A stretch of 64,000 bases of DNA, taken from contig PCWN01000008.1 in assembly GCA_002787355.1 (NCBI GenBank), positions 69,873-133,872 on the forward strand, in the 5' to 3' direction. Every line of letters begins with the position of its first letter. Position 1 is the first letter of the stretch. A model generated the notes under the pieces. It saw nothing but the letters and a program-made list of their open reading frames with translations, had not been told where the DNA came from and made no database searches. This DNA comes from Candidatus Magasanikbacteria bacterium CG11_big_fil_rev_8_21_14_0_20_39_34 (lineage in GTDB: Bacteria; Patescibacteriota; Patescibacteriia; Magasanikbacterales; UBA922). This document shows, piece by piece, positions 1,380-60,471 of this stretch. A program made the translations under genes and the position numbers.

Positions 1380-1775
1380 GGGGATGACAGGACTCGATAG
1401 ACGGACCAAGTTGCTTATATGTGCATATCAAGGTGCTCCACTTGTAAAACAGGGCACATTCTACGTGCAAACGTAACTAGTCGAGTGAAGAATGCACTTG
1501 CTCGCGCATTTGCTTTCGGAACACTCGCACCTGTTGTAGCGTAATACACGCCGCAACCATCACCTCCGTGATACTCAATAGCGGTCAGGTGGTGTCAACC
1601 TTATTGAGTGTAGGATTGTATTCGTAGTCAGTTGATGCAGTCTGAAAGTATAATTACTGGCAACCTTTTACCTTTTTGCCGTTTTTGGAGGTAGAAGGAT
1701 AACAAAACGGCTACGTATGTAGAACATATTTGTAACCCGATCTAGACCCGGGTTCAAATCCCGGCATCTCCACCA
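1380..1775 (+). ncRNA. ssrA: tmRNA (transfer-messenger RNA)
   Basis: The 5' GGGGATGACAGGACTCGATAGACGG resembles the canonical tmRNA 5' end. The 3' end is tRNA-like with T-arm GGGTTCAAATCCCGG and acceptor ...GCATCTCCACCA pairing with the 5' GGGGATG. An internal Ala-rich reading frame (…ALARAFAFGTLAPVVA) ends at TAA 1542-1544. It sits directly after smpB. Confidence 0.8.
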
Positions 1776-56704: not shown

Positions 56705-56998
56705 ATGAAAGAAAATGAAGGTATCATTGTACTCGTAGGTATGGGGAAAATAGCTCTCAATGACAAAACGGATGAAGAAATTGCCAAAATGGTACAGTTG
56801 GGCGATGTAGAATCGTTTGGAGTTTTGGTGGAAAGATATGAACCAAAAATGCTTCGTTACGCACAAAGATTTCTTTTTCATAAACAAGATACCGAAGATC
56901 AAGTTCAAGAGGTATTCTTAAAAGCCTATACCAATATTCAAGGTTTTGATACGAAAAGAAAATTTTCTCCTTGGATATATCTCGTATTGCTCATATAA
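56705..56998 (+). CDS. sigma-70 region-2-only protein (probable truncated ECF-type sigma factor)
   Basis: LVERYEPKMLRYAQRFLFHKQDTEDQVQEVFLKAYTNIQGFDTKRKFSPWIY fits sigma-70 region 2. The ORF stops right after it. No region-4 (HTH) coding sequence follows in any frame before gpsA on the opposite strand. Confidence 0.5.
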   Translation: MKENEGIIVLVGMGKIALNDKTDEEIAKMVQLGDVESFGVLVERYEPKMLRYAQRFLFHKQDTEDQVQEVFLKAYTNIQGFDTKRKFSPWIYLVLLI

Positions 56999-58834: not shown

Positions 58835-58905
58835 AAACGTTATTAAAAATAATATCTATTTCTTCCACTATTTTATCATAATAAAGCGAAATTTCAAGGA
58901 GATAC

Positions 58906-58934
58906 CTTGACTTATTCGACTATTCATGATAGAA
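58906..58934 (+). promoter_or_regulatory. near-consensus sigma-70 promoter driving the CheY-like receiver gene
   Basis: TTGACT (58906-58911), a 17-nt spacer, then TAGAAT (58929-58934). A short CGCTTC/GAAGCG hairpin and an AAGG ribosome-binding site precede the ATG at 58978. Confidence 0.5.
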
Positions 58935-58977
58935 TCCATCGCCGTGCCTTTCCGCTTCAGAAGCGAAGGGACAAGGT

Positions 58978-59349
58978 ATGAAGTCCATTCTTGTTATTGA
59001 TGACGAAGCGTTGGTGGCGCGAGCTGCCAGCCGCATCCTGAAGCTTTCGGGCTTCACGGTTATCTGCACCGACAACGGTGCAGATGGGGTGCGACTTGCG
59101 CAGGAGACGGCCTTCGGGCTCATCCTGTGTGACGTCCAGATGACCGGGATGAATGGCGTACAGGTGGTCTGCAACCTTCGGGAGGCAGGCAACAACACCC
59201 CCATCGCCTTCATCACGGGTGGCACCGGACCGCTTGCCGGCCAGGTTCATTCCTTGCTGGAGCAGGGCGCCGTGTGTGCCCTGTTGGATAAGCCGTTTGG
59301 CGTTGACTCCCTCACGGAGCTCGTCACTCGGCTTTTGTCGGAGAGATAG
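58978..59349 (+). CDS. stand-alone CheY-like response-regulator receiver domain (GC-rich, atypical codon usage)
   Basis: ILVIDDEALVARAASRILKLSGFTV…FGLILCDVQMTGMNGVQVV…PIAFITG… is the classic receiver fold (acidic pocket DD, phospho-acceptor Asp, T/S, K-like positions). The codons are GC3-rich (GCG, CTG, CGC), unlike the rest of the window. There is no output domain. Confidence 0.75.
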   Translation: MKSILVIDDEALVARAASRILKLSGFTVICTDNGADGVRLAQETAFGLILCDVQMTGMNGVQVVCNLREAGNNTPIAFITGGTGPLAGQVHSLLEQGAVCALLDKPFGVDSLTELVTRLLSER

Positions 59350-59629
59350 GAAAGACTTCACCTTTCACTCGAGCAATCGAGCAGTCCCGAGCTCTTGAGC
59401 CCGCGGTGAGCCAAACCCACGCATAGCAGATGACTAGGAAAAAGGCATTTTCCGTCAAAATAGACGTGTAGATGTCCACAGATCCCGGTCCTACGCTGTG
59501 GCTGAGGTAAAACTACCTGGAAACGGGTGACACTACCTTGGTGGTGAGGTTATCCGGCGCACCTGGAAACAGGAGTACGGACTCAAACCCACGAAGACTG
59601 GTCAGGCACGGCGCTTGACTCAATATCAA

Positions 59630-59657
59630 AATTCTCCTTTTTCTGGAGAATTTTTTT
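59630..59657. terminator. bidirectional rho-independent terminator at the distal end of the GC-rich island, abutting the deacetylase stop codon
   Basis: AATTCTCC tttttct GGAGAATT followed by 7 T. Confidence 0.5.
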
Positions 59658-60471
59658 ATTTAATAAAAAGTTTTTCAAGGTCAGTCCTGTTGGTGATGAC
59701 TATCCTTTTCATCTCCAAAAGCTTTTCCATATTCTGATCACTTCCCGATACCAAAGTCAGGCCAACCTTGTAACCGGCATCTTGTGCCATTTTTTCTATA
59801 TTTTCATTGTACAAACCAAATGGATATGCTATGGAATATACTTCTTTTCCAAGAAGTTTTTCAATCTTCTCTTTACTCTCTACAATTTCTTTTTTGGCTT
59901 CTTCATCTGAAATACGTGTGAGATAAGCATGATACTTTGTATGTGATCCAAACTCCACAAGTCCAGATGCATTCAATTCTAAAATTTGATCATCTGTAAG
60001 CCAATTTTTAGAATGGACATGAGATTGCAAATACATGACCGACTTCATGTTATATTTTTGTAAAAGAGGAAAGGCAATCTTATAAAAATCTTCTGCACCA
60101 TCATCAAAAGTAATAACAAAAGATTTTTGAGGTAAGACTCCCCTTTTTATATAATCCAAAAGTTCTTCAAAAACAAGAGGGTGATAATCTTGGTTGTTAA
60201 GAAGTTGTAATGCTTTTTCAAAATTTTCTGAAGATACATACCACGTTTTTGTATCCTCACCGACTCCATCCGGAGGATTCCCTATGTGGTGATAAAGCAA
60301 AATAGGAAAATGGAATTCACTTTCAATTTTTTCTTCCTTTACTTGGTCTGAAATATCTACTGGTACCGCTAAAGTGCTCGAGACAATATTATCTTCAGAT
60401 GTATATTCCGTACTTCCCCGGTGTAGACAACCACAAAAAAGTAAGCAAACCAAAAAAATTTTCTTTGTCAT
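59656..60471 (-). CDS. polysaccharide deacetylase (NodB-homology) family lipoprotein
   Basis: Lipoprotein signal MTKKIFLVCLLFCGC. NodB motifs FPILLYHHIG…, ITFDDG and HSxxH-like. Confidence 0.8.
   Translation of the reverse strand: MTKKIFLVCLLFCGCLHRGSTEYTSEDNIVSSTLAVPVDISDQVKEEKIESEFHFPILLYHHIGNPPDGVGEDTKTWYVSSENFEKALQLLNNQDYHPLVFEELLDYIKRGVLPQKSFVITFDDGAEDFYKIAFPLLQKYNMKSVMYLQSHVHSKNWLTDDQILELNASGLVEFGSHTKYHAYLTRISDEEAKKEIVESKEKIEKLLGKEVYSIAYPFGLYNENIEKMAQDAGYKVGLTLVSGSDQNMEKLLEMKRIVITNRTDLEKLFIK

What the first reader, a model, noticed from the sequence alone, without database searches (positions are those of the whole stretch)
58900..59657. GC-rich island carrying a promoter-equipped stand-alone CheY-like receiver and a roughly 290-nt GC-rich non-coding tail
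Between uppP and the deacetylase gene (both minus strand) lies a roughly 0.7-kb segment that is by eye around 60% GC, against mid-30s for the flanks (not computed). Its codon usage is dominated by GCG/CTG/CGC. It encodes, on the opposite strand to its neighbours, a 123-aa single-domain response regulator. A near-consensus TTGACT-17-TAGAAT promoter (58906-58934) precedes it. After the stop codon the GC-rich sequence continues about 290 nt without any convincing ORF, ending at a strong terminator (59630-59657). This is therefore a candidate structured RNA (3' UTR, sRNA or remnant). No histidine kinase partner is nearby. The composition suggests recent horizontal acquisition from a high-GC donor; a host such as an actinobacterium would fit an episymbiont scenario. 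An assembly chimera is the alternative.
Basis: partly seen in the sequence, partly recalled or inferred. Interest (0 to 1): 0.6.

Follow-up and report, generated by a model that had tools for sequence, protein, structure and literature searches.

The report
GC-rich, tightly folded receiver-protein messenger RNA
This is not imported or mis-assembled DNA but a long-inherited gene in a few Magasanikbacteria. Its whole transcript (leader, CheY-like coding region and 280-nt tail) is kept as an unusually GC-rich, tightly folded RNA whose two ends pair with each other.

Summary
Window 58940-59627 is 57% GC (flanks 25-29%, window mean 38%) and is the only such island in 64 kb. It has a near-consensus extended -10 promoter, a 123-aa Response_reg ORF, a 278-nt tail without an ORF, and a terminator.

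- A chimera is excluded. At least 20 independently assembled contigs carry the same junctions.
- Recent import is not supported. Two other species (uppP 77% and 60% identical) have the same gene at the same place, equally GC-rich (GC3 0.69-0.75 against 0.27-0.49 in flanks). Flanking synonymous sites are saturated, and no donor was found.
- The GC-rich stretch starts at the predicted transcript start and ends at the terminator.

The whole transcript is hyper-structured. MFE z is -7.3, -7.6 and -4.9 in the three species, and the CDS alone scores -3 to -7.6 while controls are near 0. The 5' end pairs with the 3' end in all three species, using different sequences. Between two species, 18 pairs changed on both sides and stayed paired (null 5.6), some through amino-acid changes.

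The tail is a conserved, new structured RNA domain with no Rfam match. The closest analogue is the end-closed mRNA of type I toxins. Function is inferred, not shown.

The parts
58907..58935 (+). Sigma-70-type promoter: TTGACT, 17-nt spacer, TG-n-TAGAAT (extended -10). AT-rich, and lies outside the GC island.
   Evidence: 10 of 12 matches, TG present. Equivalent TTGACA/TGnTAnnnT promoters stand at the same position in L001, L099, L102 and L100.
58940..58958 (+). P1 5' arm. CGCCGUGCCU (58940-58949), plus a weaker extension, lies at the predicted 5' end of the transcript. It pairs with 59595-59613.
   Evidence: a 10-nt perfect inverted repeat, with only these two exact copies in 64 kb; best duplex partner of the 5' end anywhere in the transcript, -28.2 kcal/mol, reached by 0 of 500 shuffles; helix in the consensus fold, with a C-G to U-A change in L001. 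L099 has the same helix with an unrelated sequence.
58951..58971 (+). Local 5'-leader hairpin UCC-CUUC / GAAG-GGA. It buries the SD-like AAGGGA (58966-58971).
   Evidence: P(unpaired) of the SD is 0.03 in nascent RNA. The hairpin sequence is conserved with changes in L001 (helix 2).
58978..59349 (+). CDS of the 123-aa single-domain receiver (D8, D9, D52, T80, K105 present). It also forms a chain of conserved RNA hairpins, for example 59062-59085.
   Evidence: Pfam. dN/dS is 0.27-0.32. Catalytic residues are invariant in three species. CDS folding z is -4.3 (dinucleotide shuffles) and -3.3 (synonymous-codon shuffles); controls are near 0. In the CDS, 11 pairs changed on both sides, against a null of 3.2. 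Hairpin 59062-59085 keeps pairing through C30H, T31A and A35V (helix 8).
59354..59364 (+). P2 3' arm GACUUCACCUU, just after the stop codon. It is predicted to pair with the start-codon region AAGGU-AU-GAAGUC (58973-58985).
   Evidence: MFE.: -12.2 kcal/mol, reached by 11 of 500 shuffles. In L001 and L099 the best partner of the start region also lies within 40 nt after the stop. The pairing is not conserved column for column (helix 3), so this is suggestive only.
59368..59381 (+). Small hairpin CUCGA-GCAA-UCGAG with a GNRA loop.
59382..59600 (+). Tail domain: a long irregular rod with a three-way junction. It has two GNRA-capped hairpins (59515-59527, 59561-59573) and two copies of CAAACCCACG (59412-59421 in a helix, 59584-59593 predicted single-stranded).
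   Evidence: Folding z is -4.4 (window) and -4.9 (L001), against -1.8 for the antisense strand. It is 79% identical to L001, in blocks separated by 1-2-nt indels. Seven pairs changed on both sides, against a null of 1.5; 6 pairs broken, against 20.2. A tetraloop stem covaries: CCUG-GAAA-CGGG against CGCA-GCAA-UGUG. No ORF, no Rfam match, no paralogue.
59595..59613 (+). P1 3' arm. AGGCACGGCG (59604-59613) plus an extension. Alternatively it forms a local hairpin, GUCAGGC-ACGGC-GCUUGAC (59600-59620).
59628..59660 (+). Intrinsic terminator: 10-bp AU-rich stem and a T-run. It lies 2 nt from the convergent deacetylase stop codon (59656), so it may act in both directions.
   Evidence: The stem covaries in L001 (columns 294-310).

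Best explanation
The island is one self-contained transcription unit, running from a strong extended -10 promoter to an intrinsic terminator. It has been inherited vertically in a small Magasanikbacteria clade. Its RNA of about 690 nt does two things.

1. It is the messenger for an orphan, apparently functional CheY-type receiver.

2. It is a conserved, exceptionally stable fold.
- The first 10-20 nt pair with the last nucleotides before the terminator (P1).
- The start-codon region tends to pair with the segment just after the stop codon (P2).
- The coding region is a chain of hairpins maintained by compensatory substitutions, some of them non-synonymous.
- The 280-nt tail folds as a separate rod and three-way-junction domain with GNRA loops.

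The high GC content is therefore best read as the result of sustained selection on RNA folding of the transcribed segment. It is not the mark of recent import.

Inferred function: the closed fold makes the message compact, nuclease-resistant and poorly or conditionally translated. The 5' hairpin hides the ribosome-binding site on the nascent chain. The 3' end competes for the 5' strand of that hairpin, so translation would be tied to completion, or later processing, of the transcript. This resembles the logic of type I toxin mRNAs.

Shown by computation: the anatomy, the inheritance, and the conservation of structure. Inferred: the effects on stability and translation. What the tail binds or senses is unknown.

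The confidence of 0.6 is a blend: about 0.85 for the structural and evolutionary description, and about 0.4 for the stability and translation-gating mechanism.
For: Inheritance:
- The gene order gpsA-uppP-receiver-tail-deacetylase is the same in L001. In L099 the receiver lies divergent from uppP.
- The receiver subfamily has only these three members.

GC is maintained: GC3 is 0.74, 0.75 and 0.69, against 0.27-0.49 in flanks. Flanking dS is 1.1-2.5, while dS in the receiver is 0.67-0.8.

Boundaries: GC rises right after the -10 box and falls right before the terminator.

Folding:
- Whole-transcript z is -7.3, -7.6 and -4.9.
- CDS-only z is -4.3/-3.3, -7.6/-5.9 and -3.3/-3.0 (dinucleotide / synonymous-codon shuffles). 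Three flanking genes and two unrelated receivers, one from a 66-70% GC contig, score +0.4 to -1.2.
- MFE density is -0.39 to -0.47 kcal/nt, against -0.20 +/- 0.044 for the window and -0.31 for the tmRNA.
- The sense strand folds 24-48 kcal/mol better than the antisense strand.

Covariation:
- With the structure predicted from the window alone and tested on L001, 18 pairs changed on both sides and stayed paired, against 5.6 +/- 2.1 (0 of 2000 permutations). Broken pairs were 36, against 67.6.
- The tool count gives 18, against 2-3 with slid partners.

P1:
- -28.2, -33.5 and -38.5 kcal/mol. In each species it is the best partner of the 5' end in the whole transcript, and 0 of 500 shuffles reach it.
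- The L099 sequence (GCUGGCUCAACCCCC / GGGGGUUGAGUCAGC) is unrelated to the window's CGCCGUGCCU / AGGCACGGCG.

Protein is real: Pfam E = 6e-20, dN/dS about 0.3, catalytic residues invariant.

Analogy: 5'-3' long-distance interactions in aapA and hok mRNAs give stable, translationally inert transcripts (PMC6733600, read).
Against: - Only three species exist, and only two have alignable tails, so covariation statistics rest on one species pair.
- 60% GC in the CDS exceeds the tmRNA of the same genome (46%). Folding selection alone may not explain the composition, and an ancient import could have seeded it.
- The predicted effect on the ribosome-binding site is ambiguous. P(unpaired) of the SD rises from 0.03 to 0.27 (window) and from 0.19 to 0.60 (L001) when the 3' end is added. 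It barely changes in L099.
- P2 is not conserved column for column.
- There are no expression, end-mapping or probing data.
- All structures are thermodynamic predictions.
Confidence: 0.6

Rival explanations
1. Recent horizontal acquisition from a high-GC donor. On this view the composition simply reflects the donor genome.
For: - GC and GC3 are extreme outliers.
- The region upstream of uppP is variable among Magasanikbacteria. It is empty in L101 and L105, and holds other cargo in L100, L102 and L106. The gene was therefore gained at some point.
- The nearest outside relative found, 39% identical, sits on a 66-70% GC contig.
Against: - The gene is present and syntenic in three species with 60-77% flank identity, and has diverged with them.
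- GC3 has not decayed although flanking dS is saturated.
- No relative above 46% identity exists outside the clade, and there is no DNA match.
- GC boundaries coincide with the transcript ends, while the promoter and terminator have native composition.
- The CDS folds far better than a receiver gene from a truly high-GC genome.
Confidence: 0.07
2. Assembly chimera joining a contaminant fragment to the Magasanikbacteria contig.
For: The composition changes abruptly at both edges.
Against: - 20 contigs from independent JGI, ENA and Logan assemblies carry the gene. The 10 examined have the same junctions and identical sequence.
- Two further species have the same arrangement.
Confidence: 0.01
3. 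Relic or cassette of a mobile element. The terminal inverted repeats would be DNA-level recombination or transposition sites, or the ends of an invertible segment. The locus upstream of uppP would be an insertion hotspot.
For: - Perfect 10-15-bp inverted repeats bracket the island.
- A different GC-rich cargo, a 105-aa two-TM ORF, is bracketed by a 14-bp perfect repeat at the same locus in L102.
- The locus is variable between genomes.
Against: - The repeat sequences differ completely between orthologous receiver islands, so pairing is conserved, not a recognition sequence.
- There is no target-site duplication.
- No transposase, integrase or invertase gene lies within about 5 kb.
- There is no second copy in the window, the loci or the collections.
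- The orientation is the same in all 10 contigs examined.
- The sense strand folds 24-48 kcal/mol better than the antisense strand, which points to RNA rather than DNA.
Confidence: 0.1
4. The tail is an independent 3'UTR-derived small RNA, or a trans-acting riboregulator. It would be released by processing and act on other mRNAs or proteins, and the receiver mRNA would only be its carrier.
For: - The tail folds as a separate domain, is conserved, and shares the terminator.
- An invariant 17-nt block, ACGGACUCAAACCCACG, is predicted to be single-stranded.
- The CAAACCCACG motif occurs twice.
Against: - No internal promoter was found.
- The tail is much shorter in L099, about 137 nt, with only a GGUGGUGAG motif in common.
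- The motif is not enriched in the window, and no target is evident.
Confidence: 0.15
5. A type I toxin-antitoxin-like module, that is, a closed mRNA encoding a harmful protein kept silent until processed.
For: - 5'-3' closure, a very stable fold and a buried SD resemble hok and aapA mRNAs (PMC6733600).
- The L102 unit at the same locus encodes a small two-TM protein.
Against: - The product is a 123-aa soluble receiver with intact phospho-acceptor residues, not a small hydrophobic peptide.
- No antisense promoter or RNA was found inside the island.
- No such family is known for receivers.
Confidence: 0.05
6. The tail is the decayed remnant of a former downstream gene, such as a lost kinase or output domain. 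It would have no function of its own.
For: It is GC-rich like the CDS and lies directly downstream. Its length varies between species (278, 281 and 137 nt).
Against: - Identity to L001 is 79% where neutral sites are saturated.
- Indels are 1-2 nt, and the pattern is one of perfect blocks.
- Compensatory changes are present and the z-score is strand-specific.
- No residual reading frame is shared.
Confidence: 0.03

Closest known systems
Type I toxin mRNAs closed by a 5'-3' long-distance interaction (hok of plasmid R1; aapA1 and aapA3 of Helicobacter pylori)
   Same: - The full-length transcript is closed by pairing of its two ends.
- The fold is very stable.
- The ribosome-binding site is hidden in local hairpins on the nascent chain.
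- The folding is conserved by covariation across homologues (PMC6733600; compare).
   Different: - The product is a 123-aa soluble CheY-like receiver, not a toxic peptide under 60 aa.
- No antisense antitoxin RNA was found.
- The transcript is 2-3 times longer and carries an extra 280-nt structured domain.
- The whole CDS is GC-enriched and structured.
- The predicted effect of closure on the SD is activating or neutral, not clearly inhibitory.
Bacterial mRNAs regulated by 5'UTR-3'UTR pairing (icaR in Staphylococcus aureus, hbs in Bacillus subtilis). Recalled from the literature, not checked here.
   Same: The 3' untranslated region pairs in cis with the 5' leader and affects translation or decay.
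   Different: Those cases involve a short UTR-UTR duplex on otherwise ordinary mRNAs. Here the coding region itself is under structural selection, and the composition of the whole transcript is shifted by about 20% GC.
Genomic RNAs of single-stranded RNA phages (MS2, Qbeta). Recalled, and mentioned in PMC6733600.
   Same: These are coding RNAs that are hyper-structured throughout. Long-distance interactions gate translation, and their coding sequence is constrained by RNA folding.
   Different: Those are viral RNA genomes. This one is a chromosomal, DNA-encoded, single-gene cellular transcript.
Large structured non-coding RNAs found as GC-rich islands in AT-rich genomes (OLE, GOLLD, ROOL, raiA, HEARO; Rfam)
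   Same: A GC-rich, conserved, multi-helix RNA with GNRA loops in a low-GC genome. The tail would have been picked up by GC-rich intergenic-region screens (PMC6429828, PMC11109978, listed).
   Different: No Rfam 15 family matches, even at E <= 10. The structured RNA here includes a translated ORF.
Single-domain response regulators (CheY, Spo0F, DivK; Pfam PF00072)
   Same: A receiver fold with the acidic pocket, phospho-acceptor Asp, Thr and Lys.
   Different: - There is no kinase, chemotaxis or phosphorelay gene nearby.
- The subfamily is confined to three species.
- The best PDB matches are generic, E no better than about 1e-11 for natural proteins.

Membership tests
Response regulator receiver domain (Pfam PF00072) | Profile score above the curated gathering threshold over the full domain | tested here: met
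   71.8 bits against a 30.2 cut-off, residues 4-116 on profile positions 1-110 of 111. L099 orthologue: 57.6 bits.
Response regulator receiver domain (Pfam PF00072) | Conserved active-site residues: acidic pair, phospho-acceptor Asp, Thr/Ser, Lys | tested here: met
   D8, D9, D52 and K105-P106 are invariant in all three orthologues. T80 (FITGG, VSGG, LATG) is Thr or Ser.
Two-component system (paired kinase and regulator) | Cognate histidine kinase encoded adjacent or nearby | tested here: not met
   Genes within about 5 kb are YidC, Maf, CCA-adding enzyme, GDT1, gpsA, uppP, deacetylase, permease, a Laminin_G_3 protein and HtrA. No HisKA or HATPase_c domain is listed. The rest of the genome was not available.
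Type I toxin-antitoxin mRNA | 5'-3' long-distance interaction closing the full-length mRNA | tested here: met
   P1 is -28 to -38.5 kcal/mol. It is the best partner of the 5' end and is reached by 0 of 500 shuffles in three species.
Type I toxin-antitoxin mRNA | Small (under about 60 aa) hydrophobic toxic peptide | tested here: not met
   The product is a 123-aa soluble receiver domain.
Type I toxin-antitoxin mRNA | Cis- or trans-encoded antisense RNA antitoxin | tested here: inconclusive
   No promoter-like site on the minus strand lies inside the island. The only minus-strand sites are the uppP promoter and a weak site beyond the terminator. No expression data are available.
Any described RNA family (Rfam 15) | Covariance-model match at or near the gathering score | tested here: not met
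   At E <= 10 there are only four chance-level hits, 15-20 bits against cut-offs of 47-80, all on the terminator or flanks. Nothing was found in the related loci. The scan does find the tmRNA and tRNAs of the window.
Recently transferred genomic island | Compositional outlier | tested here: met
   z up to 5.6; GC3 0.74 against about 0.3.
Recently transferred genomic island | Absent from close relatives, or with a close homologue in a donor lineage | tested here: not met
   It is present at the same locus in the two closest sampled relatives. The best outside homologues are 39-46% identical.
Transposable element or cassette with terminal inverted repeats | Terminal inverted repeats | tested here: met
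   A 10-nt perfect repeat, 21 nt at 81%.
Transposable element or cassette with terminal inverted repeats | Target-site duplication, recombinase gene, multiple copies | tested here: not met
   No direct repeat flanks the island. No recombinase gene lies within about 5 kb. It is single-copy.
Conserved structured RNA (general criterion) | Compensatory base changes in excess of a null, with strand-specific stability | tested here: met
   18 pairs against 5.6 +/- 2.1. 18 against 2-3 with slid partners. The sense strand beats the antisense strand by 24-48 kcal/mol. Caveat: this rests on one informative species pair plus L099 for P1.

The most novel reading that the evidence does not exclude
These units would be a previously unrecognised class of bifunctional 'structured messengers' in CPR bacteria. 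They are strongly transcribed, GC-rich, end-closed RNAs whose fold has a job of its own and which also encode a small protein.

Possible RNA-level jobs include acting as a long-lived scaffold or decoy, sensing through the tail domain, or being an RNA built to survive outside the producer cell. For an episymbiont, that last option could mean delivery to a higher-GC host whose codon usage it matches.

The L102 unit (different cargo, same closure, same locus) and the L100 hairpin array hint that the phenomenon goes beyond this one receiver gene.
Probability: 0.12. Interest if true: 0.9.

Novelty: new variant of a known kind. Interest (0 to 1): 0.62.

Why it matters
- It shows that a sharp GC-rich island in a low-GC genome need not be foreign DNA or a plain non-coding RNA gene. 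Selection on RNA folding can reshape the codon usage, and even the amino-acid sequence, of a protein-coding gene over long evolutionary times.
- It extends the end-closed, translation-gated mRNA design, so far known mainly from small toxin genes, to a signalling protein in the Candidate Phyla Radiation. Gene regulation in this group is almost unexplored.
- It supplies a new conserved RNA domain of about 280 nt with no known family.
- Practically, screens that flag horizontal transfer by composition, or non-coding RNAs by GC-rich intergenic regions, would misclassify such loci.

Tried and rejected
- Rfam on the island, the whole window and related loci gave no family. I considered RNase P, 6S and tmRNA by eye because of ACAGAUCCCGG-like and GGAAAG motifs. 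I rejected them because there is no model match and the GGAAAG is not conserved in L001.
- The motif CAAACCCACG-N-CAAACCCACG in viral contigs hit only tandem-repeat protein genes.
- A three-anchor motif in viral and metagenome contigs returned only the L001 contig and a chance hit inside guaA.
- A receiver-based scan of GTDB genomes returned only relatives at 46% identity or less, from cyanobacteria, Verrucomicrobia and others.
- A profile search and an exhaustive HMMER search found no further subfamily members. The top of the exhaustive list is multi-receiver proteins whose domain scores add up.
- BLASTN against plasmids and phages found nothing.
- nhmmer of the tail against all held DNA found no paralogue.
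- Long antisense ORFs (134 aa in the window, 167 aa in L001) are shadow frames of a high-GC3 gene. In L099 the frame is broken into two pieces, so I do not regard them as genes.
- ORF-tail complementarities (59142-59150 with 59482-59490, and 59267-59284 with 59597-59614) are not conserved in L001.
- The Zambryskibacteria receiver (L104) and the receiver on a high-GC contig (L103) show no special folding, so this is not a general property of stand-alone receivers.
- The RBS-accessibility modelling did not give a clear on/off direction.
- Pfam on the L102 and L100 ORFs found no family.
Full report
1. THE OBSERVATION

In 200-nt windows, GC is 0.52-0.625 from 58900 to 59599, against 0.30-0.42 on both sides. 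In 300-nt windows it reaches 0.623, which is 5.6 SD above the window mean of 0.38. No other part of the 64 kb exceeds 0.49.

- The ORF 58978-59349 (+) encodes 123 aa. They match Pfam Response_reg end to end (E = 6e-20) and nothing else.
- Its GC3 is 0.74, against 0.27-0.32 in uppP, gpsA, the deacetylase and the permease.
- TTGACT-17-TAGAAT with an upstream TG lies at 58907-58935. A terminator lies at 59628-59654.
- The 278 nt between the stop codon and the terminator have stops in all frames.
- A protein look-up names the organism as a Candidatus Magasanikbacteria bacterium from the CG11 sample.

2. NOT A CHIMERA, AND NOT A RECENT IMPORT

The exact protein is encoded on 20 contigs from independent JGI, ENA and Logan assemblies. 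The ten examined have uppP on one side, the deacetylase on the other, and an identical tail.

A second species (L001) has the order gpsA-uppP-receiver-tail-deacetylase, with the same GC step. Its flanking proteins are 67-77% identical to those of the window, and its receiver is 69% identical.

A search with uppP then found a third species (L099; uppP 60% identical). A 126-aa receiver, 30% identical, again lies divergent from uppP and is again GC-rich: GC3 0.69 against 0.40-0.49.

Between the window and L001, flanking genes have dS of 1.1-2.5, effectively saturated. The receiver has dS 0.67-0.8 and dN/dS 0.27-0.32. A foreign composition should have decayed over that distance, yet all three lineages keep GC3 near 0.7.

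No donor is visible.
- Outside the three orthologues the best proteins are generic receivers at 39-46% identity.
- An exhaustive HMMER pass over 1.84 billion representatives adds no single-domain close relative.
- Plasmid and phage collections hold no similar DNA.

The gene was certainly gained at some time, because other Magasanikbacteria have metK directly next to uppP (L101, L105) or other genes there. The gain predates the split of these species, so "recent" does not hold.

3. THE GC-RICH STRETCH IS THE TRANSCRIPT

The composition switches a few bases after the -10 box and a few bases before the terminator. The 101 nt to the left are 25% GC, the island is 57%, and the 73 nt to the right are 29%. 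The promoter and terminator have the native composition. Imported DNA would have no reason to begin at +1 and end at the terminator. Selection acting on the RNA would produce exactly that pattern.

4. THE WHOLE RNA IS FOLDED, NOT ONLY THE TAIL

The tail alone folds with z = -4.4 in the window and -4.9 in L001, into nearly the same shape. Its reverse complement gives only -1.8.

The full transcripts give z = -7.3, -7.6 and -4.9 for the window, L001 and L099.

The coding region on its own is also an outlier.
- z is -4.3, -7.6 and -3.3 against dinucleotide shuffles.
- z is -3.3, -5.9 and -3.0 against shuffles that keep the protein and the codon usage and only permute synonymous codons.
- Three flanking genes, a Zambryskibacteria receiver and a receiver from a 66-70% GC contig give +0.4 to -1.2.

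Folding energy per nucleotide is -0.39 to -0.47 kcal. The window average is -0.20 +/- 0.044, and the tmRNA gene of the same window gives -0.31. The sense strand folds 24-48 kcal/mol better than the antisense strand in all three species. This is what G-U pairs predict for an RNA-level constraint and not a DNA-level one.

5. THE FOLD IS CONSERVED BY COMPENSATORY CHANGE

To avoid circularity I predicted the structure from the window sequence alone and then scored it on L001. The null kept the substitutions within their region and codon-position class.
- Whole transcript: of 242 pairs, 18 changed on both sides and stayed paired, against 5.6 +/- 2.1 (0 of 2000 permutations). Only 36 pairs were broken, against 67.6 +/- 4.7.
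- CDS alone: 11 against 3.2.
- Tail alone: 7 against 1.5.

The pair-counting tool gives the same 18, against 2-3 when partners are slid by 1-3 columns.

One hairpin shows how far this goes. At 59062-59085 the window has AUCUGCACCG/CGGUGCAGAU. L001 has CCACGCCG/CGGCGUGG at the same place. Three pairs changed on both sides, at the price of the amino-acid replacements C30H, T31A and A35V (helix 8).

In the tail, a GNRA-capped stem changes from CCUG-GAAA-CGGG to CGCA-GCAA-UGUG.

6. THE ENDS OF THE TRANSCRIPT PAIR

CGCCGUGCCU (58940-58949) starts about where transcription should start. Its perfect complement AGGCACGGCG (59604-59613) lies just before the terminator. These are the only two exact copies in 64 kb.

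- Scanning the 5' 22 nt against the whole transcript, the best partner is this 3' site. Energies are -28.2 kcal/mol in the window, -33.5 in L001 and -38.5 in L099, and no shuffle in 500 reaches them.
- In L001 the inner extension changes while keeping complementarity (C-G to U-A).
- In L099 the helix is built from an unrelated sequence, GCUGGCUCAACCCCC / GGGGGUUGAGUCAGC. Since the receivers are orthologous, what is conserved is the pairing and not a sequence. This argues for an RNA helix and against protein-recognised terminal repeats.

A second closure is present in each species' own minimum-energy fold. It joins the start-codon region to the segment just after the stop codon. Its support is only modest (11 of 500 shuffles) and it is not conserved column for column. 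I treat it as suggestive.

7. THE TAIL

Within the full-length folds of both species, 59382-59600 forms its own domain.
- It is a long irregular rod that splits at a three-way junction.
- It has two GNRA-capped hairpins.
- It has a variable arm.
- It carries two copies of CAAACCCACG. One lies in a helix with GUGGUGAGGUU. The other lies in a predicted single-stranded, invariant 17-nt block.

The tail has no Rfam match, no paralogue and no ORF. In L099 it is only about 137 nt and shares little more than GGUGGUGAG. The large tail domain is therefore an elaboration in the window/L001 lineage, while P1 is the common feature.

8. HOW IT PROBABLY WORKS

Shown by computation: one promoter-to-terminator unit; a functional-looking receiver under purifying selection; and a conserved, strand-specific, end-closed fold that covers leader, CDS and tail.

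Inferred: the fold governs the life of the message.
- The SD-like AAGGGA is buried in a local 5' hairpin as soon as it is made. P(unpaired) is 0.03 in the window and 0.19 in L001 for nascent RNAs.
- The 5' strand of that hairpin is also part of, or adjacent to, the arm that pairs with the 3' end.
- In the models, adding the last 40-120 nt raises SD accessibility to 0.27 and 0.60. In L099 it changes little.
- The direction of the effect is therefore uncertain. It could be repression by closure, as in toxin mRNAs, or licensing of translation only once the transcript is complete.

I commit to this reading: a compact, long-lived, weakly or conditionally translated messenger, whose 3' domain takes part in the switch. 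I put about 0.4 on that mechanism and about 0.85 on the structural and evolutionary description.

What would activate it (processing, a helicase, a ligand or protein on the tail) is unknown. No kinase is nearby.

9. COMPARISON WITH KNOWN SYSTEMS

The nearest mechanistic relatives are the type I toxin mRNAs hok and aapA. In those, a 5'-3' long-distance interaction yields a highly stable, translationally inert transcript. Metastable 5' hairpins block co-transcriptional translation, and the folding is conserved by covariation (PMC6733600).

This locus meets the closure criterion but fails the defining features of that family. It has no small toxic peptide and no antisense RNA was detected. It works like such an mRNA without being a member of the family.

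Other partial analogues are mRNAs with 5'UTR-3'UTR pairing and the hyper-structured coding RNAs of RNA phages. As an RNA family, the tail is new.

10. BEYOND THIS GENE

At the same position relative to uppP, two other Magasanikbacteria carry different strongly promoted, highly structured units.
- L102 has a GC-rich transcript (GC3 0.73 against about 0.3) for an unrelated 105-aa two-TM protein. It is closed by a perfect 14-bp end-to-end helix, with CDS z = -3.5.
- L100 has a 400-nt array of seven near-perfect hairpins with z = -13.

These hint at a class of end-closed, GC-rich transcripts in this group. They also keep a cassette or hotspot explanation alive at low probability.

11. VERDICT

It is limited by the sampling of three species and by the absence of any expression or probing data.

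Noticed in passing
L102 3362-3846 (minus strand); GCA_002869205.1, contig PKTJ01000017.1: At the same position relative to uppP there is a different GC-rich unit behind a TTGACA / TGgTAAAGT promoter. It encodes a 105-aa two-TM ORF with no Pfam family (GC3 0.73 against 0.29-0.32 in flanks). The transcript is closed by a perfect 14-bp helix, GCAGGUGGAGCUGC / GCAGCUCCACCUGC. Transcript z is -4.8 and CDS z is -3.5.
   Followed up: partly
L100 3401-3803 (minus strand); GCA_016182415.1, contig JACPGR010000080.1: Between metK and uppP lies a strongly promoted stretch of about 400 nt made of seven long, near-perfect hairpins. MFE z is -13 on one strand and -15 on the other. An 81-aa ORF with a GGAGG site overlaps it, and the public gene call is on the opposite strand. 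No Rfam or Pfam match. Its nature is unknown.
   Followed up: partly
window 1380-1775 (+): Rfam finds a full-length tmRNA (117.9 bits) that ARAGORN did not report. Its GC is 0.46 and its folding z is -2.7, so it is less GC-rich and less tightly folded than the receiver transcript.
   Followed up: partly
window 58835-58935 and 59628-59660: The uppP promoter (TTGAAA-16-TAAAAT, minus strand, 58897-58870) and the receiver promoter are back to back within about 40 nt. The receiver terminator abuts the stop codon of the convergent deacetylase gene (59656) and could terminate both.
   Followed up: no
L101 3924-4001 and L105 2399-2501: In other Magasanikbacteria, metK is directly upstream of uppP with a gap of only 76-100 nt. 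The region upstream of uppP is therefore a variable spot where different small units have been gained.
   Followed up: partly
window about 56705-56998 (+) (L002 2728-3021): The public gene call here is a 97-aa ORF with only a Sigma70_r2 hit, next to a GDT1-family gene. It could be a truncated or minimal sigma-factor fragment.
   Followed up: no
L104 3446-4045 (minus strand), Zambryskibacteria scaffold: A 199-aa membrane-protein ORF with no Pfam hit is 50-56% GC in a 30-42% GC neighbourhood, next to an ordinary-composition stand-alone receiver. No end-to-end closure was evident on inspection.
   Followed up: no
collections: Neither the genome scan nor the metagenome motif scan returned the window's own contigs, although the protein look-up shows them in JGI and NCBI. 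The source appears to be masked or absent there. Absence of hits in those two scans is therefore weaker evidence than it looks.
   Followed up: no
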